Shown here piece by piece: positions 12,694 to 30,539 of a stretch of 64,000 nt of DNA. Below the pieces are notes generated by a model. It saw only the letters and a program-made list of their open reading frames with translations, was not told where the DNA came from and searched no databases. Position 1 is the stretch's first letter, and the number at the start of each line of letters is the position of its first letter. Source of the DNA: an uncultured Candidatus Saccharibacteria bacterium (GTDB lineage: Bacteria > Patescibacteriota > WWE3 > 2-01-FULL-39-13); contig OZ246395.1 in NCBI GenBank assembly GCA_965230915.1, positions 792,935 through 856,934 of the forward strand. The letters run 5' to 3'. Both the position numbers and the translations under genes were made by a program.

Positions 12694-13422
12694 TTAGTTA
12701 GAGATCTTTTTAAGACCAAATCCTACTAAAATTAATCCTAATGATATAGATCCGGCAAGAATCAAGTTTGCCTTTTCTTTCTGGCTGACTTCTAATGATC
12801 CTCCAGTTACTGGCAATCTCTTTGGAGATTCTTTACCTTTTACCTTTGGTAGTTCGAGACAGAAATTTGCATAGTCTGAATCGTCTACTTTTTCATCGCT
12901 ATTTTCTAACTCACCTTTTGCTTTCGCAATGTTTGTTAAACAGATACGATCGTTTTTTGGAAGATCGCTAGATACTTTAGCTGTAAATTCAAATTCTTTT
13001 GATTCTCCAGCATCTAAAGTGAATTCGTCGAATTCTACTTTAGTGTTGTTATCTTTTCCGTCTCCATCTCCGTTTCTGTATTTAACGAATGAAGGTAATA
13101 TATCTTCTAATTTAATGTTCTCGATTGTAATATCGCCTACGTTTTTTACGACGATACTAAAAGTTATAGTTTCGCCTGCTCTAAATGTATAAGGATGTGA
13201 TCCTCCGCTAGCTTTAATATGATCTTCAAAATCTCCTGTTTCAGGATTTTTGATCTTTTTGTTAACTTCTAGATCTCCTTCTTTATCTTCGATACAAGTT
13301 TCACCACCACCGTACTGATCTACACAAACCTTCTTTGCGTAAGAATTAACGGTACTTATTTGTAGAGCTCCGATGCTTAAGATTAATGCACCAAGAACTT
13401 GCAAGACTTTAATAGTATTCAT
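12694..13422 (-). CDS. Sortase-anchored surface protein (DUF11 repeat, LPVTG sorting signal)
   Basis: Signal peptide, then a DUF11-like segment (ITFSIVVKNVGDITIENIKLEDILP). The C-terminus has LPVTGG followed by a hydrophobic stretch and a KK tail. Confidence 0.7.
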   Translation of the reverse strand: MNTIKVLQVLGALILSIGALQISTVNSYAKKVCVDQYGGGETCIEDKEGDLEVNKKIKNPETGDFEDHIKASGGSHPYTFRAGETITFSIVVKNVGDITIENIKLEDILPSFVKYRNGDGDGKDNNTKVEFDEFTLDAGESKEFEFTAKVSSDLPKNDRICLTNIAKAKGELENSDEKVDDSDYANFCLELPKVKGKESPKRLPVTGGSLEVSQKEKANLILAGSISLGLILVGFGLKKISN

Positions 13423-13465: not shown

Positions 13466-13501
13466 TGGGCGTATTATAAACCCTATAGTAGCAGATGTCA
13501 A
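13466..13501 (-). promoter_or_regulatory. Consensus sigma70-like promoter (TTGACA-17-TATAAT) for the LPVTG protein gene
   Basis: On the minus strand the -35 is at 13496-13501 and the -10 at 13473-13478. A CCCTATAG motif sits in the spacer. Confidence 0.55.
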
Positions 13502-16500: not shown

Positions 16501-17196
16501 GAATGCTGCTCCAATATATATAGATCGCAACAAAACTTTTATTCGATCATTACTTATTAGTAAGTAAACAAATAAAAACCCTGCAACCGAGCCAATTAGG
16601 GCATAATATAAAACCGGTGCATAACCTTGTGGAGTTCCCAAGAATATAAACAAACACAGCAATAAATAATCTTTTAATTTGGCTTTTCGGATAAATTTTA
16701 AAACATACAAAAATATCCAAGGAAGCACCATGAACTGAGCATTAAACATTTCAAATGGGACAAAGAAGATTTGAAGTGTACCCAGATTAAAGATGTAAAA
16801 AGATGTGGCCAAAAGCGCCAACAAATTTTTATGCGGACGATGTTTAAATAGATATTTACCCAAAAAGTACATTCCCAGCGAACCTATTAAAAGGGTCAAA
16901 AAAAAGTATGAATATCGCAAAATCGAAACCGGCATTACAAAAGAAGCAAGCCATAGATAAATAAATCGTGGAATGTCTGACGCATGAGCGTGTCCACCGG
17001 CTGTACCTAATCCCTGGTATTCGTTCCAAACGCCGAAAAATTGTCTTTGGAAATTTATGCCGAAATTGAATTCATCGCTTAAGCTATCCCAGCCTAAAAG
17101 CCATGTACCAGAAATATGGTTGGCAAAGGCTAATATTAATACGACCACAGAAATGGCAATAGGATATAAAAACCGACGTGGAAGATCCGCCTTCAT
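13498..17196 (-). CDS. Giant GT-C-fold membrane glycosyltransferase-like protein (YfhO/PMT-like N-terminal TM domain plus an ~800-aa extracytoplasmic domain)
   Basis: 1232 aa. The N-terminal ~450 aa carry 12 or more TM helices. The gene is directly downstream of a DPM-synthase-like GT2 gene. Confidence 0.55.
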   Translation of the reverse strand: MKADLPRRFLYPIAISVVVLILAFANHISGTWLLGWDSLSDEFNFGINFQRQFFGVWNEYQGLGTAGGHAHASDIPRFIYLWLASFVMPVSILRYSYFFLTLLIGSLGMYFLGKYLFKHRPHKNLLALLATSFYIFNLGTLQIFFVPFEMFNAQFMVLPWIFLYVLKFIRKAKLKDYLLLCLFIFLGTPQGYAPVLYYALIGSVAGFLFVYLLISNDRIKVLLRSIYIGAAFILLNLYWILPNLYYIKNYSDSVSASKINSLFSEEAFLYSTKWGTWLDFPILRGFLFGWLDYKYTTGQNGYLMDFWRGYMANPLVLFIGLLFFAIIIVGIVASILKNKKVLISLIPVFGLWLFMVIGANGILAPIWYYLREHFELFREGLRFPYSKFSILLQFGYSLFFVVGIIFLLDLTNKITPQIKKTILWVLIALPILYMYPFFTGNLISKEMQIKFPIEYRNLFDKFEKENPNKRIVYLPANSLYGWQYYDWGSEGYQGAGFAWFGLAQSFVTRDFDRWHPANEQFYTELQYAIYNEDQELLQYLLKKYDVSYVILDKNIISPNTPQSLFYKETSQLLSKTKDLKLSSTFGNIEVYDFRNPTISENYIEIPKDIVPTREINYEDDYSYYDTNYVAKVVDYYQNNIFDSVDLNKLNDSKEFEINIQNDAKSDPNKTYAVSIPFASRREAIPVEFSLQNSQLQVKYIYPEIYNNKGDAIFTNVPQDLFPAISTGANQILINNVLLKSNDLKFQGLIDESSDIVEFSQTNSGIFDYSDTSYSAVATDCSGGEGGVGKIYNESEKSVGLETEDGLTGCLNFEDRISNSSSVIYKISFDYKNSDAAVPMYCLSDTQTGECHNQQYKSRPELSVEGFNSYEDYVLIDHPEVVRFVLVLASTDQNAAVSGQFKNIKIERFDVKSVRKLLNPALRGLEKNISIKASDFPLKVKLPEYDELSSNYLAGSKKYNSQVGSCDEFSEKSYKRDLINLGGRDAYQYYAEDAISCDTLESSIINTNASYMVTFDTEKLSGQGFDVCFWGINIGKCLLQERLNGGKESYLLPSYTSAGGVNISLNNSSIGRIPTQNNLYGVDVKYLPYAWFKEVAIKDLGNNLVTSADQITVTKKALYQYNIDLTGANLEKGLNLVLNQSFDNGWVLLDLNSCFLGIVSPGFCKTPKSSHFLYNNWANGWHIDNQEDISNYAIIFWPQLLQIGGYLVFALFLAVLSTIYGILSFYGSRRYKT

Positions 17197-17269: not shown

Positions 17270-18046
17270 TTAAGGAAGTACTGCTAATTTAGCTTGTTTT
17301 GTAAGCCCAAATTTAGGCATACTTTCTTTAGCTAATAAGTAACTTAATATGAAAGTGTCTCTGACAGCTTTAAAAATAACTTTTAGATTACTTCCGGTAG
17401 AAGATCCAAATTGTCTTTTATAGTGGTTAACTCCGATTTGTTTAAATTTGTAACCGTTTCTATATGACTTTAATAAAAATTCAGTTGTGACCATAGCCCC
17501 ATCACTAACTAATGGGCTGGCAGCAACAATAACTTCTTTTCTTATTAATTTAAAAGCACAATCAATATCTCTTATTGATCTTGGGAATCCTAAAAAGATT
17601 CTATTCCAGACTTTTAGAGTATCGGCTAACAATTTTCTTTTGAACCCTTCCGCTCTGACTTTTCTATAACCAATAACAAGGTCATTATTTTTAGCAAAAG
17701 GAATGAATTTTGTGATTTCGTTTAAATCAAATTGTAAATCTCCGTCGCTAAAAAATACCCAATCATATTTGGCTTCTTTAAAACCTCTTTTTACGGCTCC
17801 TCCGTATCCTTTGTTTCTTTGAGATACTAATCTCACAGAAGGATATTTCGCCTCTAATTTTTTAGCAATTTCTCTTGTTTTGTCTTTACTACCATCGTTT
17901 ACTAAAACGATCTCGAATTTTTCAGCTACTTTTGGGAAAACTTTTAATGATTCGGCGACTAGTTTTTCTACATTTGCTTCCTCGTTGTATAGAGGAAAGA
18001 AGACTGAAAGTCCTTTAAGTTTTAGGGTAGGTTTACTTACTTTCAT
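17270..18046 (-). CDS. GT2 polyprenol-phosphate sugar synthase (dolichol-phosphate mannosyltransferase-like)
   Basis: 258 aa with the motifs LYNEE, VLVNDGSKDKT and FSDGDLQ typical of the DPM1/Ppm1 family. A -10-like TACCAT box lies 6 nt before the ATG, so the transcript may be leaderless. Confidence 0.8.
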   Translation of the reverse strand: MKVSKPTLKLKGLSVFFPLYNEEANVEKLVAESLKVFPKVAEKFEIVLVNDGSKDKTREIAKKLEAKYPSVRLVSQRNKGYGGAVKRGFKEAKYDWVFFSDGDLQFDLNEITKFIPFAKNNDLVIGYRKVRAEGFKRKLLADTLKVWNRIFLGFPRSIRDIDCAFKLIRKEVIVAASPLVSDGAMVTTEFLLKSYRNGYKFKQIGVNHYKRQFGSSTGSNLKVIFKAVRDTFILSYLLAKESMPKFGLTKQAKLAVLP

Positions 18047-18771: not shown

Positions 18772-19905
18772 CTACCTCACGACATCGGTTGTGGCGATTG
18801 CCAACACCTCGTTGCCGGAGATAACCGCGATGCGCACATGCACGACGTTGCATCCCATGGGGACGGAACAATTCGCGCCAGCGTTCGCTGCGGTTGGTTT
18901 GTTAAGGACTGTATCCCGATTGAGCATATTGCCCGTAACGTGAGACATTCCCGCCCAAATGGCCTGAGGGAGATATTCACCCCACCAGTACCGACCCCAA
19001 ACCGTAAACCCGCTGTCAACGTGTTGATCTTCATACGAAGACGTAACGTTGCCAACGTTAATGATCATGAGCGCGCAACCGTCGCCGGTGTCCTGCTCGC
19101 CGTCACCATCTGTGTCTTTGGTGCTACCAATACAAGTCCCTAACGGGGCGATGTTGTAGTCACCGGTGATGATACGGTAATGCTGCGCCGGAGTGACAAT
19201 GTCACACAACTCTTCCTGCTGGCAAAACGATGATTCGGCCATGCCGTATTCCAAACCTTGAGAGGCTGGGTACGTCAAGTTCGGGTTCACCACGTTGTCA
19301 ACATTCGGAAACTGCTTCCAGATCCCCAAATCCAGGTTATACCAAGGCCAGGCCTTGATATGCTCAGGAGCGAGGTTGGTGTAAGACACCGCCCATTGCC
19401 CTTGTGGCAAATTCGGTAAAACAACTGCTGCTTGCGCTGATGGCGATTGCGGCATCGACGCTTGGGTTAAACCTCCAACTGCTGCGGCACTTACTTCGCC
19501 TGTCGGGCTAGACAGATTAAAAGCATCTGTCGTAGGCACGGCGGCTACCGTCTGCGGCGTTGCTGTCGGAACCAAGATCACCTCGCTCGTAGGCGCGGCT
19601 GCAACTGCTTGCGCGGTTGCCGTTGGAACCAAAACTGGCGCTGCACCATTCGCTAGAGGAGCTTGTTGCGACACACTCGTCGGTGCACTGACTGACGGCA
19701 CTGATCCCCCAGGCTGGTTAGCCGGATTCACAATTGTCGTCGGCGTCGGCGCGACCTCAAGAGTCATAACGCTGCCAAGCTTGGCTTCGGGCTGGTTGGG
19801 CGCTGCTGTCTGGTTAATACTCCATATGGCAAGCCCTCCAATCACGAAGACCAAAATCCCTGTTAACACGATTGTTGCCAATCGGCGTTGCTCAGGTGTA
19901 CTCAT
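18772..19905 (-). CDS. Membrane-anchored exported protein with a Pro/Ala/Thr/Val-rich repeat linker and a Cys-containing C-terminal domain (DTDGDGEQDTGDGC calcium-binding-like motif)
   Basis: 377 aa, GC-rich. The terminal codons have GC-rich third positions. Confidence 0.5.
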   Translation of the reverse strand: MSTPEQRRLATIVLTGILVFVIGGLAIWSINQTAAPNQPEAKLGSVMTLEVAPTPTTIVNPANQPGGSVPSVSAPTSVSQQAPLANGAAPVLVPTATAQAVAAAPTSEVILVPTATPQTVAAVPTTDAFNLSSPTGEVSAAAVGGLTQASMPQSPSAQAAVVLPNLPQGQWAVSYTNLAPEHIKAWPWYNLDLGIWKQFPNVDNVVNPNLTYPASQGLEYGMAESSFCQQEELCDIVTPAQHYRIITGDYNIAPLGTCIGSTKDTDGDGEQDTGDGCALMIINVGNVTSSYEDQHVDSGFTVWGRYWWGEYLPQAIWAGMSHVTGNMLNRDTVLNKPTAANAGANCSVPMGCNVVHVRIAVISGNEVLAIATTDVVR

Positions 19906-19962
19906 TTGTACTTACCTTTCTAAGGGTCTCCCCTTCATACCACTCTCTCGATAAAAAACGGG

Positions 19963-20053
19963 TTAGTTCTTGATAATAGACACATCCAAAAAGCCTAAAT
20001 TAGCCCGATATGATAGGCCTATAAGCTTCCTCGATGTGTCCATCAAGAACTAA
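19963..20053. repeat. Composite hairpin (12-bp perfect outer stem plus an 8-bp inner stem) enclosing a GATATGATAGGCCTATA core
   Basis: 5' arm TTAGTTCTTGAT...GACACATC, 3' arm GATGTGTC...ATCAAGAACTAA. It lies 58 nt upstream of gene A's start. Confidence 0.45.
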
Positions 20054-20289
20054 TATTTTTGTTTGTGTTCGTCATATGAAATCTGCCTTTTCTCAAGAGC
20101 CGTAGCTAAGAGAGTAACAGCGTCATATTATTTGAAAGTGCTTCCTTAAAAGCTAATTTTAAGGAGCTTTAGGCCAACAAGTTAAACTTCTTGGCTCTTT
20201 AGGAATGCCCTTTTTAGACCTCCCGAAAGATGCTCGAATTATACTATAGGACTCGTAAATTGTCAATGGGGGCAAGGGTTTTCTAGCTT

Positions 20290-21594
20290 TTAGGACTTTA
20301 GCTTACCATTAATAGCAGTCATGGTATGTCGGCTATTGTGGCCAATTCCTTTGGCTTGAACCATCGATATTTTTTCGCCAGTAAAGGAGTCATTTGGCTG
20401 ATCTAAAGACATGGCTGTTGGGTAGCTATGTCCAGTTAAGCCAGGATTACTCCATACTGCAGACAGGGGTTGCGGATATTTTATAACAAGTTCACCTTCA
20501 CTCCAAGAGATTCCGTCAGCAGATTTAGAAGCGCAAACTCCTACGTTGGTTTGGAAGGTAGAAATAAACTCACCACGCTTAGTGTTGTAACTAATTCCCG
20601 GCAAGGCGGCATAACCTGCGCCAGGTATAGATGCGGGAGGAGTTATTACTGGCTGCAGATCTGGGGTTTCCCCGGGCTGCATAACTTTAAATCCATCTTT
20701 TGTGTAATGTTCTAATGCTCCAATCGTGTTTCCAATTAATGGCAACCTGGCCATGAAAATTTGATCAACAGTGTTAAATTTAGCTTTTGATTCTTGAGGA
20801 ATCCACTCGATGTAATAAAGCAAAATTTGTTCTTGGCCTGTATTTGAATCTTGAACTTTTATTGCGTGCGGCTGACCCGCTCCTGTAACTTCTCGACCTG
20901 GTTGTGAATGTTCACGTCCAGTAATTAATTGGCCCATCGGCTGGAATGTTTTTCCGTTTTGAGATTGGGCTAGACCAACTGAAGCAGTGAACCCAGCTCC
21001 GTTGCCAGGATTGATATGCTGCTCGTTGTGAGTAAAGCCAAGGTAGCCTCCATTAAACTCAACAACTGAAGTTACTGCACAATATCCGTTTCGATAAGTT
21101 TCGTTTGGATCTCTAGTAATTGCAGGTACAATTGCATTTTGTTCATTAGTTTCTGGTCTAAAACCTTTTTTTGAGTCCCATAGATATGGGAACGATCCTT
21201 GAATGCCAGACATAATTCCTGAAACAAACATGCGTTTTGTTTCGCCATCTTCTGCTGTTATAAATGGAACATGACCATCGGGGGTCCATTCCATTCCGGG
21301 CGTGGCTAGTGCGCGTTCACCGTGTTCAAATTCAAAAAAACTATTTTCGGGAAATTCCAATTCTGTTTCTTGTGCAAGAAATTGTTCGAAAGGTTGTTGT
21401 GGTTCAATCGCGACTTCGGCATCTTGCACAGCCGCTTCTGGTTGATTTTGAGATGACCCAAGCGTAGCTGCTGCCAACGTTGCAACAGCGGTTCTTCCGG
21501 CAAGTTTTAAGAAATCACGTCGTGAATAATTTGGCTCTGGATTTGGGTTTATGGTGTTTATCTGATTATTTTCGTTTTCGTTAGGTTCAACCAT
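20290..21594 (-). CDS. Tat-signal exported protein, paralog 1 of 2 (possible beta-propeller glycosidase-like, unverified)
   Basis: 434 aa with an RRDFLK twin-arginine motif. It is clearly paralogous to 21608..22870 (shared VSGI..G.QGS.PY.W, TGAGQP.AIKV and E..G..WS). Codon usage is native-like. Confidence 0.5.
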   Translation of the reverse strand: MVEPNENENNQINTINPNPEPNYSRRDFLKLAGRTAVATLAAATLGSSQNQPEAAVQDAEVAIEPQQPFEQFLAQETELEFPENSFFEFEHGERALATPGMEWTPDGHVPFITAEDGETKRMFVSGIMSGIQGSFPYLWDSKKGFRPETNEQNAIVPAITRDPNETYRNGYCAVTSVVEFNGGYLGFTHNEQHINPGNGAGFTASVGLAQSQNGKTFQPMGQLITGREHSQPGREVTGAGQPHAIKVQDSNTGQEQILLYYIEWIPQESKAKFNTVDQIFMARLPLIGNTIGALEHYTKDGFKVMQPGETPDLQPVITPPASIPGAGYAALPGISYNTKRGEFISTFQTNVGVCASKSADGISWSEGELVIKYPQPLSAVWSNPGLTGHSYPTAMSLDQPNDSFTGEKISMVQAKGIGHNSRHTMTAINGKLKS

Positions 21595-21607
21595 CTTAAG
21601 AATTATA

Positions 21608-22870
21608 CTAGCCTTTTGTTTTTAGTTTTAGAGCAACCATAGAATGTTGTCTGGCTTGGCCTATTCCGCGAGCCATAAGCATTGTTAAATTTTCACCGGT
21701 AAAATTATCATTAACCTTTGAAAAATCTACTAACGAAGGGTAGCTATAACTTGAGTTCGCAGGGTTTTGCCATACTTCTGAAAGTGGAACTGGATATTTG
21801 ATAATAAGTTCAGCTGAACTCCAATCAAGACCATTTTCAGATTCCGTAGCACAAACTCCAAGATCTGTTTCAAATATAGCTAAAAGTTTTTGACGTTTAG
21901 TGTTGAATGTAACTCCAGCTAAAGCTGAATAATTTGCATTCGCAAGATTTCTTGGATAAATTAAGACCGGCTTAAGATTAGGCATGGCTTTCGCATTTAT
22001 TGTGTTTTTAAATCCACTTTGTGTCCAGCTTTCAACTGCACCTAGTCCATTATTTTGTAATTCTAATTTCGTTAAGTAAATTTCATTTGGAGTAAATTGA
22101 TCTCTCGGGAGCCATTCAGTGTAATAAATATATGCATAGTTTTTGCCAGTATTACGATCTGTAACTTTAATTGCACAAGGCTGACCTGCCCCAGTAACCT
22201 GTCCACCTGGGTAAAGAGTTCGTCTACCTAAAATAGGTGACCCAGCTGCGCGCTCAAATGTTAAACCTCCATCTTTTGAAACGACAATACCAACCGATGC
22301 CCGAAAACCTGCGCCATTTTGAGAAGCCACCCATTCTTCGTCATGAGTAAATCCGAGCAAACCATAATTAGTTTTAATAACTGAAGTTAGCCCCGAATAT
22401 CCATTTCGATAATATTGAGTGTAATCTGATTGATTTCTAGACACACTTGGAGCAAAGCCATTCGGTCCGATATATCTATTAAGACCTTCTGATGGCGACC
22501 AAGTATATGGATAAGAACCTTGAACTCCATTAACAATTCCGGAAACCCACATTAATTTTGAGCCATCGCTTTGTGTAATAAATGGAATTCGCCCATCTGG
22601 GTACCATCCCATTTGTGGCAAATCGACACGGTATTCGGTTTGTTCAAAATCAAAGTAGCTGTTTTCTTGAAATTCTAATTGGGTTTCTTGTTGGGGATAA
22701 AGCTCAAATGGAAATTGAGTTATTTCTTCTTCGTATGACTGTTGCTTATCTAAACCAAATGGAGCAATTAAAGCTGCCCTATGGGACTGATCGGTTAAAG
22801 CTCGAAATGTGTGGCCTAGAAATTCTCGTCTTGATAATTTTATTTCGTTTAAATCGGGTAGTTCTTCCAT
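21608..22870 (-). CDS. Tat-signal exported protein, paralog 2 of 2
   Basis: 420 aa with an SRREFLG motif, colinear with 20290..21594. Confidence 0.5.
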   Translation of the reverse strand: MEELPDLNEIKLSRREFLGHTFRALTDQSHRAALIAPFGLDKQQSYEEEITQFPFELYPQQETQLEFQENSYFDFEQTEYRVDLPQMGWYPDGRIPFITQSDGSKLMWVSGIVNGVQGSYPYTWSPSEGLNRYIGPNGFAPSVSRNQSDYTQYYRNGYSGLTSVIKTNYGLLGFTHDEEWVASQNGAGFRASVGIVVSKDGGLTFERAAGSPILGRRTLYPGGQVTGAGQPCAIKVTDRNTGKNYAYIYYTEWLPRDQFTPNEIYLTKLELQNNGLGAVESWTQSGFKNTINAKAMPNLKPVLIYPRNLANANYSALAGVTFNTKRQKLLAIFETDLGVCATESENGLDWSSAELIIKYPVPLSEVWQNPANSSYSYPSLVDFSKVNDNFTGENLTMLMARGIGQARQHSMVALKLKTKG

Positions 22871-22954
22871 ATTTATGGTTTAGCAGGGTTTTATTTAGAA
22901 TTCTAATTTTAAGGTTTCGATTATTTTTGAAATCCAAATCTTAAAGATAGAATG

Positions 22955-23030
22955 CCCGGGCGGAGAAAGTTGAAAAAGTTTTGATATGCTAAAAAACGCA
23001 TGTCTAGTTTTTCCAAAATTCTCGCCCGGA
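22955..23030. terminator. Composite hairpin (CCCGGGCGGAGAA / TTCTCGCCCGG) enclosing GATATGCT-A6-CGCATGTC, 23 nt after the stop of the 23053 gene
   Basis: Seen in the sequence. The minus strand is U-rich after the stem. Confidence 0.45.
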
Positions 23031-23052
23031 CGGCATCTATGGTTGTACTACG

Positions 23053-23730
23053 TTATGGGTGAGGGATGACGACTATCGTCGAGATCACTTGGACGGATCC
23101 GTCTTGCAACGCAACCGTTGTCGTGATCGGGAAAGTCCCACCCTTCCAATCGAAATCGTGAGGCACGTAGCGATCGTTCGCCGCATAGTCAAACAAATAC
23201 GGATCTGATCCATCACCCCAATCAATCGAATGGCCTTGCAGAGCAACATCGTTCGTCTGAATGTGCAGGACAACCTGGTTATAGGTCGCACCAACAGTCG
23301 GCGTAACGGTGAAGCTGGGATACACTTCGTACGGCTCATCGACAACGATGTTAGATGTGCCGTTAGCGGTCATGGTGTAGTAGCGAACGCTGCCACAGCC
23401 CTTTTCACCCACACAACCGGTTGCCAACATCTTGTTGATCGCCGCCTTGATATTCGACTTCTGCAAGTCGTACGGAAGCCAGCTAAAGCCATAGGTTTTT
23501 TGACCAATGGTTGGCGCCGATGGGCAAGCAAGCACCTCGATAACCTGGCCCGTATTGGCGTCGTCATCTAGGGTCACAGTTTGAGCACCGTTCGCATAGG
23601 CACACGAAAGACTTACGTCTCCCGCGTAAAAATGCGAGGCGGTTTGCGCCTTGACGGGATAAGCCGAAAACAAGACTGCAACCAACGCAACGACTGCAAA
23701 ACCGAACTGCGAAATCAATTTGCGAAACAT
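23053..23730 (-). CDS. Secreted protein with a PKD-like C-terminal domain (WGDGS...HDFDW..G.F.ITTTV)
   Basis: 225 aa with a signal peptide. The region looks GC-rich (~50% by eye) and the 13 terminal codons have 8 G/C third positions. Confidence 0.5.
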   Translation of the reverse strand: MFRKLISQFGFAVVALVAVLFSAYPVKAQTASHFYAGDVSLSCAYANGAQTVTLDDDANTGQVIEVLACPSAPTIGQKTYGFSWLPYDLQKSNIKAAINKMLATGCVGEKGCGSVRYYTMTANGTSNIVVDEPYEVYPSFTVTPTVGATYNQVVLHIQTNDVALQGHSIDWGDGSDPYLFDYAANDRYVPHDFDWKGGTFPITTTVALQDGSVQVISTIVVIPHP

Positions 23731-23926
23731 TGTAGTAAATCCTCTCTTGAAATGGTTTTAGACAAAACAGTACTGCATAAAAACCTCCATATAATGAAGC
23801 TCTTAACGCAGACTGCTTTGACCCACTTAAAAAAGTATCCATAGATATTTAATGTGCGAATATCCAATGAACGATTTGCTCTTTGGATAGTTTAAATTTC
23901 CCTGATATACAGCGAAACTTGAACTA

Positions 23927-24000
23927 CTACCTCAGGATTGTTGTTTTTTCTTATGCTCGCGCATATGAGAAGCTTTAGGCTTCCAACAACCCTGAGGGTA
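23927..24000. terminator. Composite hairpin (CCTCAGGATTGTTG / CAACAACCCTGAGG) enclosing a TTATGCTCGCGCATATGAG inner palindrome and a GAAGC-TTTAG-GCTTC mini-hairpin
   Basis: 11 nt after the stop of gene 24009..25715. Seen in the sequence. Confidence 0.45.
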
Positions 24001-24008
24001 AACCATAT

Positions 24009-25715
24009 TTAGTTGTTAACTACAGCCAAAGGCAGAAAGACGTAGTCTTTCGGCTGATTGGGCTTGAAATTCGGATCGACAACCTGCAGCATAACGCCGC
24101 ATTGCACGTCTCCTGCGGGAGATGTGATTGTGATGTTTGGCGCGTAAGCGGCCTTGCCAGTGTTCGTATCCCACGAGTAATCATGCGTGACGACTCCGTA
24201 ATCAATGCTGCCATTGATGGTCTCGATACGATACGGATCGCCCTGTCCGAAGTTGAGATAATGACTCACTTTCGAACCCTGCATAAGCTGATAGGCGTTG
24301 GCCCATTCGAGCTTGAACTGGAACCGATTAAACGGGTCACCTTCAAGGTGGCGGGCTTCCAACTTGCAAGTCGGCTCAGGCAACTCTTCGTCCATAACGA
24401 CTGCGACTTCACAATTGCGACCCGTGGTCTCGGCGACGATAAACAGCGTCGAGGTATAAACCTTGCCAGGTTCATACGGGTAGGTAAATGTGAAGCTACC
24501 TGTGCCACTGATGGCCGAGGTGATCGTGATGAACTTTGGATCGATCATGCTCTGACCGGAATACAGACTGTGATAATCGGCATCGGGCGAAGCGCCATCC
24601 CAAGAGTAGTCGAAGCGATACGTGACCGGGTCGATCTTTTGGGAAGTCATCGTGCATGTCGCGGGGCTTTCGGTGTCGACGCTTACGACAACCGACTCAT
24701 TCGATTCAACCGGATAAGGGCTGAACCAACTACGCGAAAACACTGTTACTGTTTGGACATCCTGCTTGTTAATACGGAAAGAGACATTGCGTGTTCCAGG
24801 CGTACAAGACAAACCTGTGACCGGCGCGCTCATCGGTTGGGGCTGGCACTCTGATGGATAATCGCTGAATGGCATTCCGCCTGCTGTTATCAGCATTGAG
24901 TTTGCGCCTTCAGGGGCCATCACGGTGACATTGACCAAATCCATGTAGCGGTAAGAACCGGCTTGAACCTGAATGACTGGCTTCGGCACTCGGCACTTTG
25001 GCGCGAGAATGTCTTGCGTCCAAACCACTGTGTTCGTTGAGTCCGAAATCGTTAAGGTGGTTGTTACTAACCCCGTCTCGATAAAATAGGCCTCAACATA
25101 GTTGCCAAACATATTCCCTTCTTCGGGTCCGTCCAACTGCCACTGAAAAATGCCTTGGTGGTTGCCCGCCAGGCCGTTGCAATTGGTGTTGACGAAAGCC
25201 GTATACACGCCAGTGTCGCGAATCTGATATTCCCAGTCCCATTGTGTGGAACTGTTCTGGATCGGATTCACGCCGACGTAAAACGGGGGCCGCACGTCGA
25301 TAGTCACGGGGAAGGTGTAATCCAATCCACCGAAATTATCGTAGTTTAGCCCAGCCTGATATAACGTAAGACCCGCGCCGTAAGCATAGCCGTGAGTAAA
25401 CTGCGGGCTGTCGCCATCGGTGTTCAGATACACGTCAAAAAAGGCTCCATCGCCGAACTCAAAGTTGTGGTATCCAGCTTCAGGAATGGGAGGACAATCC
25501 AATTCCCAACGGAAAACGTTGGGTTCTTGAATGACCTCTTGGTTGTTCACGCATTCGACCCCAGCGGCCTTAGCCGCAAACGGAATGCAAAAAGCGCCAA
25601 ACAAACCTGCTGCAAAAACCAACATCTTGATCAAATTGCGATACATCAGAATCTCTCTTTCTTCATACATTGTTAACAAAATTGGCCGAGCTAAATCTTC
25701 AATATAAAGATCCAA
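24009..25715 (-). CDS. Secreted multi-domain protein with PKD-like repeats
   Basis: The true start is probably the internal Met near 25643 (MYRNLIKMLVFAAG..., a signal peptide preceded by AAAGAGAGA). Its C-terminal domain (CKLEARHLEGDPFN...FGQGD...THDYSWD) is homologous to the C-terminal domain of 27825..28937. Confidence 0.5.
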   Translation of the reverse strand: MDLYIEDLARPILLTMYEEREILMYRNLIKMLVFAAGLFGAFCIPFAAKAAGVECVNNQEVIQEPNVFRWELDCPPIPEAGYHNFEFGDGAFFDVYLNTDGDSPQFTHGYAYGAGLTLYQAGLNYDNFGGLDYTFPVTIDVRPPFYVGVNPIQNSSTQWDWEYQIRDTGVYTAFVNTNCNGLAGNHQGIFQWQLDGPEEGNMFGNYVEAYFIETGLVTTTLTISDSTNTVVWTQDILAPKCRVPKPVIQVQAGSYRYMDLVNVTVMAPEGANSMLITAGGMPFSDYPSECQPQPMSAPVTGLSCTPGTRNVSFRINKQDVQTVTVFSRSWFSPYPVESNESVVVSVDTESPATCTMTSQKIDPVTYRFDYSWDGASPDADYHSLYSGQSMIDPKFITITSAISGTGSFTFTYPYEPGKVYTSTLFIVAETTGRNCEVAVVMDEELPEPTCKLEARHLEGDPFNRFQFKLEWANAYQLMQGSKVSHYLNFGQGDPYRIETINGSIDYGVVTHDYSWDTNTGKAAYAPNITITSPAGDVQCGVMLQVVDPNFKPNQPKDYVFLPLAVVNN

Positions 25716-25875
25716 GTCTTATTTCGACCAATTTTAAATATGGTGCATGTCAAAAACTGAACGCTAGTTTCTGCAAAAGAAAATTTGTTCTAGTTTTCGA
25801 TCATTATTTAAATGTTCTTTTCTATTCAACTTTTATAGATCACCTGATTGTTAACCTGTAAAAATTGAAAAGCTT

Positions 25876-25948
25876 GTCCGGTGGAGTTGATTGTGTTTGA
25901 TATGCTTGCGCATAAAAGTCGAAAATCGACCAATCAACCCCTCCGGAC
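25876..25948. terminator. Long-stem terminator (18-bp arms GTCCGGTGGAGTTGATTG / CAATCAACCCCTCCGGAC) enclosing TTGATATGCTTGCGCATAAAAG and a GTCGA-AAA-TCGAC mini-hairpin
   Basis: 10 nt after the stop of 25962..27185. Minus-strand AAGCUUUUCAAUUUUU follows. Confidence 0.55.
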
Positions 25949-25961
25949 TGTGTGCATTTAG

Positions 25962-27185
25962 CTAGTTGCGCTTGAACGTTGCTCCATACGGGGCGTAAAT
26001 TAGCTGCCCTGTCGGAACTGCAACATTCAGGTCTCCACCATGGTGGAACTCGTTTTCGGTAAAGATCCCGTCGGCGCTGACATACAAGTCAGAATTCGAA
26101 AGAAGATTCTCATTCGTCTTGCATACCGTTCCGGCTGCCATGAACGGACCGCCAATGAAATCGGCACAGTTCAAAGGGTTCCCTTCGAAAGTGAAGATCA
26201 CGGCGGGGCCGGATTCTACCGCTGCTTGCGGAATGAACGTCTTTACCTTTGGCGCGGTTGGCGTCGCACTTGGTGTCGGCGTCGCGCTCGGGGCGGGAGT
26301 CTGCGTAGCAGGCTCATGCTCGATAACGAAGCTTGCACCATATGGCGCGTAAACCCAAACCGGACCTGAGAATTCTCCACCCTTCGAGTGAAATTCGTCT
26401 TCGAAGAAAATCTTGTCATCACTGACGTATACATCACTGTCAGTGCTGACTGTGACCCCTTCGGGAACGAAACAAACCTTACCAACCTCAAGCTGAGTCG
26501 AAACATACAAACGGCAATCGGAAGCGCCTTCCCCTTCGAACGTATAGATCGGAGTTGGCGTTGGCTCAACTGTGTTTGTAGGTTCAACCGTGCTGGTCGG
26601 TTCGACAGTCTGTGTGACGGTCGATGTCGGCTCGGGCGTCGTGCTCGGAGTAGCCGTAACAGTAACCGTTGCGGTCGCTGTCATTGTCGGAGACTCTGTC
26701 GGTACAGGCGTAGAACTCGGCGTCGGACTTTGTGTCGGGGTTTCTGTTACGGGAGGAATGTCAGTCGGTGTTACCGATGAAGTTGCTGTCGGCGTTGGCG
26801 TCGACTTGCGGTCATCAATAACAATCTGAAATGTATCCTCTAGAACAACATTCCCAGGCACCCAATCCAAACCAATGGTGTATGTAATTACCCCATTAGG
26901 CACGTAGGCGTATGCATGCTGAACGCTTGCATCACCTTCCGCATTGAATCGTAAATCCACCTTCTGACCGTCCCCAAAATATAACGTGCGGTAGTGGTCT
27001 TCTTCCTTTGTGGGGGTTGGGACCAAATTCGAACAATTAAAATTGAAGCGATACTGATTAGGTGGGACTTCCACCGGCTTTTGAACCTGACAGTCAGGGG
27101 TATTGTCCGCGGCGGATGCCGTGGCATAACCACCAAATACTGCAGATAAAACCAATGCGCTTGTAATCAAAGCCTTGCGTAACAT
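25962..27185 (-). CDS. Secreted protein with a PKD-like N-domain, a Thr/Pro-rich linker and two tandem ~80-aa C-terminal repeats
   Basis: 407 aa with a signal peptide and YFGDG...HAYAY. Internal repeat: IYTFEGEG...VYAPYGASF versus IFTFEGNP...IYAPYGATF. SD GAAGGAGAG. Confidence 0.55.
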   Translation of the reverse strand: MLRKALITSALVLSAVFGGYATASAADNTPDCQVQKPVEVPPNQYRFNFNCSNLVPTPTKEEDHYRTLYFGDGQKVDLRFNAEGDASVQHAYAYVPNGVITYTIGLDWVPGNVVLEDTFQIVIDDRKSTPTPTATSSVTPTDIPPVTETPTQSPTPSSTPVPTESPTMTATATVTVTATPSTTPEPTSTVTQTVEPTSTVEPTNTVEPTPTPIYTFEGEGASDCRLYVSTQLEVGKVCFVPEGVTVSTDSDVYVSDDKIFFEDEFHSKGGEFSGPVWVYAPYGASFVIEHEPATQTPAPSATPTPSATPTAPKVKTFIPQAAVESGPAVIFTFEGNPLNCADFIGGPFMAAGTVCKTNENLLSNSDLYVSADGIFTENEFHHGGDLNVAVPTGQLIYAPYGATFKRN

Positions 27186-27440
27186 GATTTCTCTCCTTCA
27201 TACGATAGGCCCAAGTCGGGCATAATACATAGATAACAAAATTAGCCAAATAGAGCCTTCGCCCCGTGGACATTTGGGGATAAAAATCAAAGGCTCAACA
27301 TGGCTAACTTTGCCGTGGAGAGAATGTAGCTAAATGCACGTATGACGTGTACTTGGAAAAAGAAATCCCGCGAAGGGAAATGATTTCGCTGTACTTTCAT
27401 ACTATATTAAGGAACTCTATCTCGGGTTAATTCCTTTGAT

Positions 27441-27550
27441 AGTTGAAGAGATTCCCATCCTGCCCAGTTGGAAATCTGCTTCAATCAGCAAACGAATCAA
27501 CGAATAGTTGAAGGGTTTCTCGTCCTGCCCAGTCGAGAAACCGCTTCAAG
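27441..27550. ncRNA. Tandem pair of hairpins with an identical 11-nt loop (TCCTGCCCAGT) and covarying stems; candidate structured RNA or leader element
   Basis: Hairpin 1 (27441-27485): AGTTGAAGAGATTCC...GGAAATCTGCTTCAAT. Hairpin 2 (27506-27550): AGTTGAAGGGTTTCTCG...CGAGAAACCGCTTCAAG. The outer helix is identical, the inner helix differs with compensatory changes, and both have a bulged G at the same position. Confidence 0.5.
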
Positions 27551-27685
27551 CATCCGTCGAACGAACTGCATATTATATATTAAAAAGGAGATTTTTGGCA
27601 GGAAACATTACTGCCTATAGTTAAAAGTTAGGCAAGTAAAGAGAGTGATTAACTCGGGATCCTGTCCATGTATCCCTTTCTTAAT

Positions 27686-27735
27686 CTGGCGATATTATAC
27701 AATTTTCAAACCCCAATGTCAATTGCTATAGGGTA
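27686..27735 (-). promoter_or_regulatory. Consensus promoter TTGACA-17-TATAAT on the minus strand, with an ATACCCTATAG motif directly upstream of the -35
   Basis: -35 at 27716-27721, -10 at 27693-27698, CTATAG at 27725-27730. Transcription from here would run through the tandem hairpins toward gene 25962..27185. Confidence 0.55.
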
Positions 27736-27753
27736 TTGGTAAGCCAAAAGAAA

Positions 27754-27812
27754 AGCCCGGGCTGTTTTTGATCTTTGAGATCTAGAAGCTTTTTGGCTTC
27801 AAACAGTCCGGG
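27754..27812. terminator. Terminator of gene 27825..28937 (stem GCCCGGGCTGTTTTTG / CAAACAGTCCGGGC with a large structured loop and a minus-strand U-tract)
   Basis: 15 nt after the stop codon. Seen in the sequence. Confidence 0.55.
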
Positions 27813-27824
27813 CTAAAACATAAG

Positions 27825-28937
27825 CTAGTTGCGAGAAACTACTCTGGGAACCCACAATTCGAGCTTAGGCCTGTTGGCGGGATGATTCGGGTCAACAATG
27901 TCGACGATTGCCGTACAAACCTTTGGCCCGAAGTCGGAATCGGATGGAACCGTTAATCTCGCCGTATACTGCGCTTTACCGGTTTCTACGTCCCAGGCAT
28001 ATTCGTGCCAAAGCGGCCCGAAATCGATAGCACCTTTGGGGCCGACGTGAAGGTTTTGATCTTCTCCTCCATCGCCGTAGTTAATGGTCGCCATATCAGT
28101 CGCGGCAAACCACGTAACCTGAAATTCCCAATAATTAAATGGAGCGCCTTCTGGATGCCGCGCTTCGAGTGTGCATTCAGGTTCATCACCAGGCTGCCCA
28201 CCCCACGACGGGTCAAGAACGGTAATCTGCTTTTGGCAAATTGCTGGGTCCTGCCCTTGCCGCCCAGGAACCACAACCGTTGCGGTATATACCGAATACC
28301 CACGGAAAACATCCCACGGATAATCGTGGTAGTACTCGCCCCATTCATAATCCGCATTTGGATAACGGATTCCCTCTGCCAGATTCGGACCAGGAGTGTC
28401 ATCTCCCAAATCAAGAAATGGGACACTCCCGTAGGCATTTGTCCAACCAATCTTAAAATCAAAGTGGTTGAACTTATCGCCCTCTCGAACTTCAAATTTG
28501 CAAGTTGGCTCACCGAACGACTTCTGGGTAGTGACTATGGCCTGGCAGGTCGCCGTTTCATTCTCGCCGTACACATACATAGTCGCCGTATAAAGCGTGT
28601 TTGTGATGTACGGGTACGTGTAAGTTACGACGCCGTTCCCAGAGACCCCTGGAACCTCGTACCACGGATAGTAGTCATAAGGGTTTCCAAAGTCGATCGA
28701 GTTGTTATTGTCGGCTTTACCCCCGCTCCACGTATAGGTAAACTGGAAGCGAAAATCCTGAACATCCTTAGCGACAAGCGTGCACTTCGTTTCACTCGCC
28801 CCTGTTGATTGGGCCGCAACATCGGGCTTTTGCACACTAGCATGACTCGGGACTTGGACACAGGCAACAAGCAAAAACAGATAGCCGATTGCTGTAAACA
28901 TGCTGAACAAAAATAACCTAGCAGCACGTCTCTTCAT
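27825..28937 (-). CDS. Secreted protein with tandem PKD-like domains
   Basis: 370 aa with a signal peptide. Motifs YGDGGEDQ...HEYAWDVETGKAQYTARLTV match the PKD consensus. Paralogous to 24009..25715. Confidence 0.55.
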   Translation of the reverse strand: MKRRAARLFLFSMFTAIGYLFLLVACVQVPSHASVQKPDVAAQSTGASETKCTLVAKDVQDFRFQFTYTWSGGKADNNNSIDFGNPYDYYPWYEVPGVSGNGVVTYTYPYITNTLYTATMYVYGENETATCQAIVTTQKSFGEPTCKFEVREGDKFNHFDFKIGWTNAYGSVPFLDLGDDTPGPNLAEGIRYPNADYEWGEYYHDYPWDVFRGYSVYTATVVVPGRQGQDPAICQKQITVLDPSWGGQPGDEPECTLEARHPEGAPFNYWEFQVTWFAATDMATINYGDGGEDQNLHVGPKGAIDFGPLWHEYAWDVETGKAQYTARLTVPSDSDFGPKVCTAIVDIVDPNHPANRPKLELWVPRVVSRN

Positions 28938-29136
28938 CGAAATCCTCTCTTTCTACGAGAAATTTAAGGGAAACAGTTATTTATTGATTTATTCAATGTA
29001 CAAGCATTTAGCTTATAAGCGCATATCATATATCAACCTATAGAAATAATCTATATTTTTATAGGATATCTAAGTTATTTTCTTTAATCTTTTTATAGAT
29101 CATATCGCATTAAAGATCGCCCACTATCCCATAGCG

Positions 29137-29165
29137 TTGACGACTACCCGGTTGAGTTGTAAAAT
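29137..29165 (+). promoter_or_regulatory. Sigma70-like promoter TTGACG-17-TAAAAT for gene 29202
   Basis: Seen in the sequence, and preceded by CCCATAGCG. Confidence 0.5.
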
Positions 29166-29201
29166 AGTAATAATTATTTTTCCTGCTCAGAAACTAAAAA
29201 T

Positions 29202-30517: not shown

Positions 30518-30539
30518 GATAACCAGTTTTAGATGCTTT

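What the first reader, a model, noticed from the sequence alone, without database searches (positions are those of the whole stretch)
23053..28937. Paralogous family of four secreted PKD-like proteins
The four genes share PKD-type motifs: WGDGS...HDFDW..G.F.ITTTV; NFGQGD...THDYSWD..GKAAYAPNITITS; YFGDG...HAYAY; YGDGG...HEYAWDVETGKAQYTARLTV. The C-terminal domains of 24009..25715 and 27825..28937 are clearly homologous (CKLEARHLEGDPFN versus CTLEARHPEGAPFN). The protein from 25962..27185 also carries a TP-rich linker and two ~80-aa tandem C-terminal repeats. Arrays of diverged Ig/PKD-like secreted proteins are typical of adhesins and surface-variation loci.
Basis: partly seen in the sequence, partly recalled or inferred. 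Interest (0 to 1): 0.6.

Follow-up and report, generated by a model that had tools for sequence, protein, structure and literature searches.

The report
Divergent PKD-like secreted surface protein paralogs
Four neighbouring genes of a small-genome (probably CPR) bacterium encode exported proteins that share a rare, very divergent PKD/Ig-like beta-sandwich domain. They belong to a conserved cell-envelope gene neighbourhood and look highly expressed, which suggests surface-coat or attachment proteins rather than a programmed variation locus.

Summary
All four minus-strand genes (A 23053-23730, B 24009-25646, C 25962-27185, D 27825-28937) carry the same ~95-aa domain: 1, 3, 1 and 3 copies. A profile built only from outside homologues hits exactly these four among 348 six-frame ORFs.

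No window protein reaches any Pfam PKD model. The link to PKD is remote but real: hhalign gives 92.8% probability, and AlphaFold gives a seven-strand all-beta domain at pLDDT 95. No solved structure matches closely (TM 0.52 or less).

The family is rare, with 24 hits among 1.84 billion cluster representatives. One named member is from Candidatus Chisholmbacteria.

- I found no repeats, cassettes or switch that would indicate programmed variation. dS among paralogues is saturated.
- In at least four lineages these genes sit beside homologues of the window's unannotated 1232-aa polytopic membrane protein.
- Genes A-D and H have twice the GC3 of their neighbours (0.52-0.60 against 0.22-0.33), and this recurs in other lineages.
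- Consensus promoters precede C and H. The C leader carries conserved tandem hairpins.

Best reading: abundant exported envelope proteins, either coat or adhesive. This function is inferred, not shown.

The parts
23053..23730 (-). Gene A (225 aa). Signal peptide residues 1-28 (23647-23730). Cys-containing N-terminal domain of unknown type (23323-23646). One PKD-like domain, residues 137-225 (23056-23322).
   Evidence: external profile E=1e-8; 34% identical orthologue in L001
24009..25646 (-). Gene B (545 aa from ATG 25646). Signal peptide 25566-25646. PKD-like domain 1 (Cys pair on strands A and B), 25275-25562. Unknown ~200-aa middle region, 24666-25274. PKD-like domains 2 and 3, 24378-24665 and 24057-24377. 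C-terminal tail YVFLPLAVVNN, 24012-24056.
   Evidence: (P0001, 545 aa)
25962..27185 (-). Gene C (407 aa). Signal peptide 27111-27185. PKD-like domain 26793-27101. Thr/Pro-rich linker 26553-26792. ~80-aa two-Cys repeat 1, 26316-26552. Second linker with KTFIPQAAV, 26208-26315. Repeat 2, 25965-26207.
   Evidence: (E=2e-11)
27825..28937 (-). Gene D (370 aa). N-terminal signal region 28839-28937, with a possible lipobox LVAC or an SPase I site SHA|S. Three tandem PKD-like domains: 28512-28793, 28185-28511, 27873-28184. Tail LELWVPRVVSRN, 27828-27872.
   Evidence: (domain 3 model, pLDDT 95.3)
27186..27722 (-). Promoter and ~500-nt conserved leader of gene C. Consensus TTGACA-17-TATAAT at 27722-27694. 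Hairpin with a GGACAGG loop, 27656-27676. Tandem hairpins 27504-27560 and 27439-27495 with invariant loop UGGGCAGGA.
   Evidence: z=-5.0; 74% identity to the L001 leader; 6 of 18 pairs with compensatory changes
22945..23045 (-). Stable stem-loop structure just after the stop codon of gene A (terminator-like).
   Evidence: MFE -37.0, z=-6.9
23920..24000 (-). Y-shaped 3' structure after gene B: a long outer stem enclosing two hairpins, the second being AUGC-GNRA-GCAU.
   Evidence: z=-6.9
25868..25950 (-). Y-shaped 3' structure after gene C, same architecture as the one after B.
   Evidence: z=-7.6
27735..27822 (-). Y-shaped 3' structure after gene D, followed by a U-rich run (terminator-like).
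   Evidence: I13; z=-5.0
18772..20266 (-). Gene H (18772-19905, 377 aa): N-terminal membrane anchor, TP-rich linker, conserved C-terminal domain. It has its own consensus promoter (20266-20238) and a ~330-nt conserved leader. It shares the high GC3 of A-D and co-occurs with PKD-like genes in other lineages.
   Evidence: (40% identical homologue in L009/L010)
20290..22870 (-). Genes E (20290-21594) and F (21608-22870): twin-arginine-signal paralogues, 43% identical, with normal GC3. A homologue follows the large membrane protein in L005.
   Evidence: (TIGR01409)
13498..17196 (-). 1232-aa membrane protein. About 10 TM helices in the first 440 aa, a ~750-aa outside region and a C-terminal TM helix. 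No family match. Homologues sit next to PKD-like genes in L005, L009/L010 and L011.
17270..18046 (-). GT2 glycosyltransferase of the polyprenyl-phosphate-sugar synthase type (ArnC/PpgS/Dpm1-like), next to the 1232-aa protein.
12694..13422 (-). DUF11/CLIPPER-domain protein at the edge of the neighbourhood. Also present in L001 and L009.

Best explanation
Shown:
- A, B, C and D are paralogous, separately transcribed genes for proteins with Sec-type signal regions.
- All four carry the same ~95-aa seven-strand all-beta module that usually has two conserved cysteines. It is a remote, lineage-restricted relative of the PKD domain, consensus xPxC..FN..F..W..G...FGDG...G...HDYxY..GG..YT..L.V...C..V.I.
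- It is combined with unrelated modules: the N-domain of A, the middle region of B, and the TP linker plus two 80-aa repeats of C.
- The family has no catalytic domain recognisable in Pfam, NCBIfam or PDB sequences.
- It is often followed by a short hydrophobic motif (phi-x-phi-[YF]-L-P-phi-phi), either between domains or at the extreme C-terminus.

Inferred:
- After export the modules fold outside the cell, probably with one disulfide each.
- They act as structural or binding elements of the cell surface (a coat, fibrils or attachment proteins) of a small-genome CPR bacterium of the Microgenomates group.
- They work together with the neighbouring conserved envelope genes. These are the membrane-anchored protein H, the 1232-aa polytopic membrane protein with its polyprenyl-phosphate-sugar GT2, the Tat-exported E/F proteins and a DUF11 protein.
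- The TP-rich linkers would be natural glycosylation sites if the large protein is a GT-C-type transferase.
- Consensus promoters, long conserved leaders, strong 3' structures and a gene-specific GC3-rich codon usage that recurs across lineages suggest very high expression, as expected of major surface proteins.
- Diversity arises by ordinary duplication, domain shuffling and gene gain or loss between genomes, not by a programmed switch.
For: - Paralogy and shared domain.
- Export: N-terminal signal regions, similar RBS and start regions, and even Cys counts in the mature parts.
- PKD relation: and 55 (UniRef names family member P0028 from Ca. Chisholmbacteria 'PKD domain-containing protein').
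- Fold: (pLDDT 95.3, seven strands). In one search the best-scoring structural matches are Ig-like sandwiches, with probability 0.98 to the PKD-containing 7kv7.
- No enzyme domain.
- Motif after domains: 13 occurrences against 1.9 +/- 1.4 in shuffles.
- Conserved neighbourhood in at least four lineages.
- Membrane architecture of the large protein. GT2 type.
- GC3 of H, A, B, C, D is 0.52-0.60 against 0.22-0.33 for 25 other genes. The same contrast appears in L001, L005 and L009.
- 12/12 consensus promoters occur only before the C and H leaders. Conserved leaders. 3' structures.
- Modular shuffling: P0006 combines the N-terminal and middle parts of B, one C-terminal PKD-like domain and one C-type repeat.
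- Literature context: CPR surface proteins with PKD and DUF11 domains are proposed to mediate host attachment (PMC8080830). S-layers have been reported in some CPR species (PMC13293708).
Against: - No window protein reaches any Pfam PKD model, even at E<=1.
- Foldseek finds no solved structure at E<=1e-3, and the best TM-scores are 0.45-0.52. The PKD assignment therefore rests on profile-profile and transitive evidence.
- Export and disulfides are inferred from sequence only.
- High expression is inferred from promoters and codon bias. No ribosomal-protein genes lie in the window to calibrate GC3 against expression.
- The GC3 contrast is absent in L007 and weak in L011.
- The large membrane protein has no detectable similarity to any GT-C family.
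- The Chisholmbacteria homologue (L007) has no such neighbour.
- No anchoring signal (LPXTG or similar) was found. The lipobox of D is not conserved in its orthologue P0003.
Confidence: 0.6

Rival explanations
1. These are host-attachment adhesins. The proteins are displayed on the episymbiont's surface and bind host cell-wall or S-layer components through their Ig-like modules. Divergence between genomes reflects adaptation to hosts.
For: - PKD-like exported modules.
- Island genes are 34-48% identical between window and L001, against 58-80% for the flanking genes. Gene content also differs.
- CPR literature assigns PKD and DUF11 surface proteins to attachment.
Against: - The proteins are short, with 1-3 domains and no stalk of many repeats.
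- No wall or membrane anchor was recognised.
- No ligand-binding domain was identified.
- The high-expression signals and the link to a large membrane machine would fit a structural coat equally well or better.
- This partly overlaps with the best explanation rather than excluding it.
Confidence: 0.3
2. This is a programmed surface-variation (phase or antigenic variation) locus. The paralogues would act as cassettes exchanged by recombination, inversion or a diversity-generating retroelement.
For: - Four diverged paralogues lie in a row.
- Gene content differs between related genomes.
Against: - No long direct or inverted DNA repeats link the paralogues or flank their promoters. The only long repeats are the E/F paralogy and the tandem leader hairpins.
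- Paralogous domains are 21-41% identical and dS is saturated or undefined.
- Each gene is complete, with its own RBS, signal peptide and terminator-like structure.
- No template/variable repeat pair was found.
Confidence: 0.04
3. This is a horizontally acquired foreign island. The GC-rich genes would be recent imports from a higher-GC donor with no integrated role in this cell.
For: - GC is 0.51-0.55 and GC3 is 0.52-0.60 for H and A-D, in a genome of about 0.34 GC.
- Family members occur on contigs of 0.40-0.53 GC.
Against: - The same genes sit at the same locus with the same GC3 excess in L001, although the orthologues are only 34-40% identical. The bias has therefore persisted far beyond the time that amelioration would take.
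- Normal-GC3 genes E and F lie between H and A.
- The GC3 excess of PKD-like and H-like genes recurs in unrelated lineages L005 and L009.
- No phage or mobile-element signatures were found.
Confidence: 0.08
4. These are accessory modules of secreted enzymes or glycan-binding proteins. As in collagenases, chitinases and SusE/SGBP-like proteins, the PKD-like domains would only space or orient an unrecognised catalytic or carbohydrate-binding part: the middle region of B, the N-domain of A or the C-terminal repeats of C.
For: - PKD domains commonly play this role.
- The best-probability structural hit is a Bacteroides surface glycan-binding protein (7kv7).
- About 200-aa regions of unknown function exist in A and B.
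- Tat-exported E/F-like proteins lie nearby. Their L005 homologue has a weak BNR/Asp-box match.
Against: - D and most outside family members consist of nothing but the PKD-like domains.
- No enzyme family matches in Pfam, NCBIfam or PDB sequences.
Confidence: 0.12

Closest known systems
PKD domain (Pfam PF00801 / PF18911, clan E-set; e.g. Methanosarcina surface-layer protein 1L0Q, ColG/ColH collagenase PKD domains)
   Same: - Size of about 90 aa and seven beta strands.
- The core motif order: FGDG, then HxY, then G..YTv.LtV.
- Occurrence in tandem in exported microbial surface proteins.
- Profile-profile probability of 92.8%.
- PKD chains dominate the weak PDB hits.
   Different: - It fails every Pfam PKD model for the window proteins.
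- It has a conserved Cys pair (start of strand A to strand G, or A to B in the N-terminal subtype), an N-terminal xPxC..FN..F..W segment, and longer loops (95-110 aa).
- No solved PKD structure superposes better than TM of about 0.48.
- It has a recurrent phi-L-P-phi-phi motif after the domain.
Other bacterial Ig-like surface repeats (Big_2/Big_9, DUF11/CLIPPER, cadherin-like, BACON)
   Same: - Beta-sandwich repeats of exported envelope proteins.
- The weakest hits of the family profile fall on such domains.
- A DUF11 protein is part of the same neighbourhood.
   Different: - There is no significant sequence match of the window proteins to any of them.
- Those families usually form long arrays in giant proteins. 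Here the proteins have 1-4 domains.
S-layer or major surface-protein genes of monoderm bacteria (general knowledge: strong promoters, long stabilising 5' leaders, strong terminators, biased codon usage, glycosylation loci nearby)
   Same: - Consensus promoters, leaders of about 330-500 nt with stable hairpins, and strong 3' structures.
- A gene-specific codon bias.
- An adjacent GT2 and a large membrane protein.
   Different: - No SLH, CWB2 or other S-layer anchoring domain is present.
- No evidence of lattice formation or abundance exists.
- The resemblance is circumstantial.
Three-component extracytoplasmic glycosylation systems (polyprenyl-phosphate GT2 + flippase + GT-C such as CsbB/YfhO; recalled from general knowledge, used as a lead only)
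   Same: - A GT2 of the polyprenyl-phosphate-sugar synthase type lies next to a large protein with about 10 N-terminal TM helices, a big outside domain and invariant acidic residues (D37, E42) in the first loop.
- Candidate substrates with TP-rich linkers lie nearby.
   Different: - The 1232-aa protein matches no GT-C, YfhO or PMT model or structure.
- No flippase was identified.
- The GT2 is not adjacent in L005, L009 or L011.

Membership tests
PKD domain (Pfam PF00801 PKD / PF18911 PKD_4) | Sequence scores at or above the Pfam gathering threshold of a PKD model | tested here: not met
   hmmscan of A, B, C and D gave no PKD hit, even at E<=1. Intermediate family members score below threshold: P0010 PKD_4 3e-4, P0013 PKD 4e-3, P0008 0.013, P0005 0.08. 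Only the distant P0021 and P0023 pass.
PKD domain (Pfam PF00801 PKD / PF18911 PKD_4) | Remote homology to PKD detectable by profile-profile comparison | tested here: met
   hhalign compared the 44-domain family alignment (without P0021) with PKD_4 domains of P0023 and P0009. Probability was 92.8%, E 3.9e-7, with 55 aligned columns across FGDG...HxY...YT.tltV. In the PDB profile search 10 of 13 weak hits are PKD domains.
PKD domain (Pfam PF00801 PKD / PF18911 PKD_4) | Core motif order: (W)DFGDG, then HxY, then G.Y.V.L.V | tested here: met
   The consensus of 44 domains is FGDG...HDYxY..GG...YT....V. It is present in all four window genes. It is degenerate in D1 and B4, which lack the FGDG motif (FGNP in D1).
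PKD domain (Pfam PF00801 PKD / PF18911 PKD_4) | Seven-strand Ig-like beta-sandwich that superposes on solved PKD structures | tested here: inconclusive
Sec-exported / cell-surface protein | N-terminal signal peptide (positive n-region, hydrophobic h-region, small-x-small cleavage site) | tested here: met
   By inspection and hydropathy. A: MFRK...VKA|Q. B: MYRN...AKA|A. C: MLRK...ASA|A. D: MKRR...LVAC or SHA|S. Maximum 15-residue hydropathy is 2.0-2.6. Cys counts in the mature parts are even. No dedicated predictor was available.
Sortase-anchored (LPXTG) or lipoprotein surface proteins | C-terminal LPXTG-type motif plus TM helix plus basic tail, or a conserved lipobox | tested here: not met
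   The C-termini end 2-4 residues after the phi-L-P-phi-phi motif, with no TM helix. D has an LVAC lipobox-like site, but its orthologue P0003 has AAFC.
Programmed variation locus (cassette recombination, invertible promoter, DGR) | Near-identical DNA repeats between cassettes, inverted repeats flanking a promoter, or a template/variable repeat pair | tested here: not met
   The repeat finder on 17000-30600 returned only the E/F paralogy, the tandem leader hairpins and short matches at chance level. dS between paralogous domains is saturated.
GT-C glycosyltransferase (for the neighbouring 1232-aa protein) | Sequence or structural similarity to a GT-C family; polytopic N-terminal domain with conserved acidic residues in the first outside loop | tested here: inconclusive
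   The architecture fits: about 10 TM helices plus a large outside domain plus a C-terminal TM helix, with invariant D37 and E42 after TM1. There is no Pfam, NCBIfam or PDB sequence match.

The most novel reading that the evidence does not exclude
A-D, together with H, would be the major, very highly expressed surface-coat (S-layer-type) proteins of a Microgenomates-group CPR bacterium. They would be built from a lineage-specific Cys-bridged PKD-like module. A conserved, so far unannotated ~1000-1230-aa GT-C-like membrane protein would assemble or glycosylate them, working with a polyprenyl-phosphate GT2 and Tat-exported E/F proteins. The short phi-L-P-phi-phi tail would serve as an attachment or strand-complementation signal. 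A novel leader RNA whose tandem hairpins display GG(G/A)CAGG(A) loops would set expression of the C/B-type genes.
Probability: 0.15. Interest if true: 0.7.

Novelty: new variant of a known kind. Interest (0 to 1): 0.45.

Why it matters
CPR bacteria depend on contact with other cells, yet the proteins that make up their surfaces are almost all unannotated 'hypotheticals'. This locus offers three usable things.

- It defines a rare PKD-related domain family that standard models miss.
- It links that family to a recurrent set of envelope genes: a large polytopic membrane protein, H-like anchors, Tat-exported E/F proteins and DUF11.
- It shows a simple genomic signature, a gene-specific GC3 excess with consensus promoters and long leaders. 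That signature could flag the most expressed surface genes in AT-rich CPR genomes.

If the coat or glycosylation reading is right, it gives concrete candidates for the CPR S-layer or attachment apparatus. If not, the result is still a well-delimited but fairly ordinary family of exported Ig-like proteins.

Tried and rejected
- Pfam, NCBIfam and PHROGs on A-D and their neighbours gave no family. The exceptions were a Tat signal in E and GT2 hits.
- Sequence search of A, B, C and E against PDB found nothing meaningful.
- Single-sequence AlphaFold of full-length D failed (pLDDT 37.8). Only the domain with a 44-row alignment folded.
- Word-indexed homologue searches found B only as itself. The 44-domain alignment found nothing.
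- The RecJ anchor in genome contigs returned only distant genomes: Saccharibacteria at 30% and a Clostridia MAG.
- Both metagenome scans returned nothing. These were the hairpin pattern and the G-protein anchor.
- Rfam found no family, either at gathering thresholds over the whole window or in E-value mode on the C leader, apart from one chance miRNA hit.
- dN/dS among paralogous domains is not usable. dS is undefined or saturated in 7 of 10 pairs.
- I first took the 3' Y-shaped structures to be a family-specific element. Folding the 110 nt after all 55 genes showed that long, very stable 3' stems are common in this genome. Only the AUGC-GNRA-GCAU sub-hairpin is specific to B- and C-type genes.
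- A literature search for the LP motif gave only unrelated peptides.
- I rejected a prophage or defence-island origin. There are no phage families, tRNAs or repeats.

Full report
**What is there.**
The region holds four minus-strand genes.
- A: 23053-23730, 225 aa.
- B: 24009-25715 as an ORF. Its likely start is ATG 25646, giving the 545-aa protein P0001.
- C: 25962-27185, 407 aa.
- D: 27825-28937, 370 aa.

All four proteins begin with a basic n-region, a hydrophobic core and a small-x-small site: MFRK...VKA|Q, MYRN...AKA|A, MLRK...ASA|A, MKRR...LVAC/SHA|S. They share an RBS region ((G)AAAGAGAGGATTT) and have even numbers of cysteines in the mature part. This fits Sec export and extracytoplasmic disulfides, but I inferred it by inspection only.

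**Is the similarity more than chance?**
- BLASTP links the C-terminal two domains of B to the three domains of D (E=8e-29).
- It links the N-terminal domain of B to that of C (E=2e-8). A has no significant pairwise match.
- Five clear domain copies (D1-3, B4-5) align with invariant Cys4, F21, W25, G56, Y62, Y73 and Cys90.
- A profile of these five, run against 1.84 billion cluster representatives, found only 24 proteins at E<=1e-3.
- A profile built only from 27 domains of those outside proteins was then run against all 348 six-frame ORFs of the window. It hit exactly the four genes: D three times, B three times (including its N-terminal domain), C residues ~29-131 (E=2e-11) and A residues ~137-225 (E=1e-8). 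The next ORF scored E=0.46.

The shared unit is a ~95-aa domain present in 1, 3, 1 and 3 copies.

The other parts differ between genes.
- A has a Cys-containing N-domain.
- B has a ~200-aa middle region, shared with P0004 and P0006.
- C has a Thr/Pro-rich linker and two ~80-aa two-Cys repeats.

**Is it PKD?**
No Pfam or NCBIfam model matches any of the four proteins, even at E<=1. Several independent lines still point to a remote PKD relationship.
- The tail of the family search reaches proteins with bona fide Pfam PKD_4 domains (P0021 from Deinococcus lacus, P0023). Intermediate members give sub-threshold PKD hits.
- UniRef already names the Candidatus Chisholmbacteria member P0028 'PKD domain-containing protein'.
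- A profile search of PDB sequences gives only weak hits, but 10 of 13 are PKD domains aligned on FGDG...HxY...YTv.LtV.
- hhalign of the 44-domain family alignment against PKD_4 domains of P0023 and P0009 gives 92.8% probability and E 3.9e-7.
- AlphaFold2 of D domain 3 with the 44-row alignment gives pLDDT 95.3 and seven strands.

Foldseek finds no solved structure at E<=1e-3. The top matches are assorted Ig-like sandwiches at TM 0.45-0.52, including a PKD-containing Bacteroides glycan-binding protein at probability 0.98. I therefore call it a divergent, Cys-bridged PKD-like module, not a member of the Pfam families.

**A short motif.**
A hydrophobic motif, phi-x-phi-[YF]-L-P-phi-phi, follows the domain in many members. 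Examples are YVFLPLAVVNN at the end of B, LELWVPRVVSRN at the end of D, KTFIPQAAV in C, and IYLPLI or VFLPII between domains in outside members. It occurs 13 times in 20 proteins, against 1.9 +/- 1.4 in shuffled sequences. It is not followed by a membrane helix, so it is not a sortase-type signal. Its role is unexplained.

**Relatives and locus dynamics.**
- The same chromosomal position, between RecJ/G and H-I-GT2, is occupied differently in related genomes.
- L001 has one B/C-hybrid gene (P0006) plus an A-like gene. It has no D, E or F.
- A JGI contig has a D orthologue (P0003) divergent from the G-like gene, as in the window.
- Island proteins are 34-48% identical between window and L001, against 58-80% for the flanks.
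- No repeats, inverted repeats or cassettes would support programmed variation.
- Synonymous divergence among paralogues is saturated.
- Variation is therefore evolutionary (duplication, shuffling, gain and loss), not a switch.

**Context that changes the picture.**
In four further, mutually distant contigs, a gene made only of these domains lies next to a ~960-1090-aa protein. That protein is homologous to the window's 1232-aa protein at 13498-17196 (35-37% identity, E<=1e-116).
- L009/L010: a DUF11 protein and a homologue of the C-terminal domain of H lie upstream.
- L011: the PKD-like gene directly precedes the large protein.
- L005: the large protein is followed by a Tat-signal protein homologous to E and F.

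The large protein has about 10 TM helices in its first 440 residues, a ~750-aa outside part and a C-terminal helix. It has invariant GWD37...E42F after the first helix. It matches no Pfam, NCBIfam or PDB sequence. In the window it is adjacent to a GT2 of the polyprenyl-phosphate-sugar synthase type. A GT-C-like role is therefore a lead from architecture and adjacency only.

**Expression signals.**
- H, A, B, C and D have GC3 of 0.52-0.60. Twenty-five other genes of the window have 0.22-0.33, including E and F, which lie between H and A, and the adjacent I and G.
- The same contrast holds in L001 (0.47-0.53 against 0.20-0.29), in L005 (0.76) and in L009 (0.67 and 0.71). It is absent in L007 and weak in L011.
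- It persists in orthologues that are only 34-40% identical and recurs in unrelated lineages. A one-off transfer is therefore unlikely and a gene-specific constraint is more likely. Expression-linked codon bias is my preferred reading, but it is an inference: no ribosomal genes lie in the window for calibration.
- The only two 12/12 consensus promoters in 17-30.6 kb precede the ~500-nt leader of C and the ~330-nt leader of H.
- Both leaders are conserved with L001 at 72-74% nucleotide identity.
- Each of A-D is followed by a very stable 3' structure (z -5 to -7.6). Such long stems are common in this genome.

**Conclusion.**
The four genes are a real paralogous family of exported proteins built on a rare PKD-related module. 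They are embedded in a conserved CPR envelope neighbourhood. The most likely role is structural or adhesive surface material produced in large amounts. The coat and glycosylation details are hypotheses.

The finding is a new variant of a known kind. It is modestly interesting in itself, and more so for the conserved neighbourhood, the codon-bias signature and the leader RNA.

Literature context:
- PKD- and DUF11-bearing surface proteins of the CPR bacterium Vampirococcus are proposed to mediate host interaction (PMC8080830).
- S-layers have been reported for some CPR species (PMC13293708).

Noticed in passing
window 27186-27722 (-); L001 4389-5082 (+); L002 1-32 and 1894-1972: There is a conserved ~500-nt leader upstream of gene C, starting at a perfect TTGACA-17-TATAAT promoter. 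It carries tandem 57-nt hairpins (27504-27560 and 27439-27495) with an invariant UGGGCAGGA loop, and a third hairpin (27656-27676) with a GGACAGG loop. The leader is 74% identical to the one upstream of P0006 in L001. Across four hairpin copies, 6 of 18 pairs show compensatory changes. No Rfam family matches. The GGA-in-loop hairpins resemble CsrA-type binding sites, but that resemblance is from memory and untested. In L002 leader pieces flank the B-like gene on both sides.
   Followed up: partly
window 19906-20266 (-); L001 7830-8003: The second perfect consensus promoter (20266-20238) is followed by a ~330-nt leader before gene H. The leader is 72% identical to the region upstream of the H-like gene in L001 and contains a GAUGGACACAU...GGAUGUGUCU hairpin.
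   Followed up: partly
window 18772-19905 and 23053-28937; L001, L005, L009: GC3 of H, A, B, C and D is 0.52-0.60, against 0.22-0.33 for all other genes examined. The anomaly is gene-specific and recurs for PKD-like and H-like genes in distant lineages. It could serve as a marker of highly expressed surface genes in AT-rich CPR genomes.
   Followed up: yes
window 13498-17196 (-); L001 10718-14425; L005 2665-5673; L009 3997-7065; L010 2752-6015; L011 949-3825: This is a conserved family of ~960-1235-aa membrane proteins. Each has about 10 N-terminal TM helices, a large outside domain and a C-terminal TM helix, with invariant GWD...EF after TM1. There is no Pfam, NCBIfam or PDB match. The genes sit next to PKD-like genes in several lineages and next to a polyprenyl-phosphate GT2 in the window. 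The family is a possible unrecognised GT-C-like enzyme.
   Followed up: partly
window 20290-21594 and 21608-22870 (-); L005 5670-6842: E and F are tandem twin-arginine-signal paralogues, 43% identical, with no known family. Their only database homologues are another tandem pair on a 4.2-kb JGI contig. In addition, a 390-aa Tat protein follows the large membrane protein in L005; it has a weak BNR/Asp-box hit.
   Followed up: partly
window 22945-23045, 23920-24000, 25868-25950, 27735-27822 (-); L001 6688-6775; L002 1706-1784: Very stable 3' structures lie right after the stop codons of A-D. Those after B, C and D are Y-shaped, with a long outer stem enclosing two hairpins. The sub-hairpin AUGC-GNRA-GCAU occurs only after B- and C-type genes. 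Long 3' stems are a general habit of this genome, with a median MFE of -19.6 and many genes below -35 kcal/mol.
   Followed up: yes
C-termini of B (24012-24056) and D (27828-27872); C 26208-26315; many outside family members: The short motif phi-x-phi-[YF]-L-P-phi-phi recurs right after PKD-like domains, either between domains or 2-4 residues from the C-terminus. It occurs 13 times against about 2 expected. It has no following TM helix and no known sorting signal matches it.
   Followed up: partly
L009 2772-3002; L011 1-~110: A small ORF sits just upstream of the PKD-like gene in two distant lineages. It ends in a conserved C(S/A)QSSRYQ...GATVWYPV...Y..CL.EKG sequence. I saw no counterpart in the window.
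   Followed up: no
L005 2048-2598: A ParE/YafQ-type toxin-antitoxin pair is inserted between the PKD-like gene P0005 and the large membrane protein gene. This interrupts an adjacency that is otherwise conserved.
   Followed up: no
window 29202-29963 (+): Gene G encodes an N-terminally anchored, acidic 253-aa protein with two Cys. It is conserved at 46% identity in L001, and a G-like gene is also present on the P0003 contig. It always lies between RecJ and the first PKD-like gene, has normal GC3, and its function is unknown.
   Followed up: no
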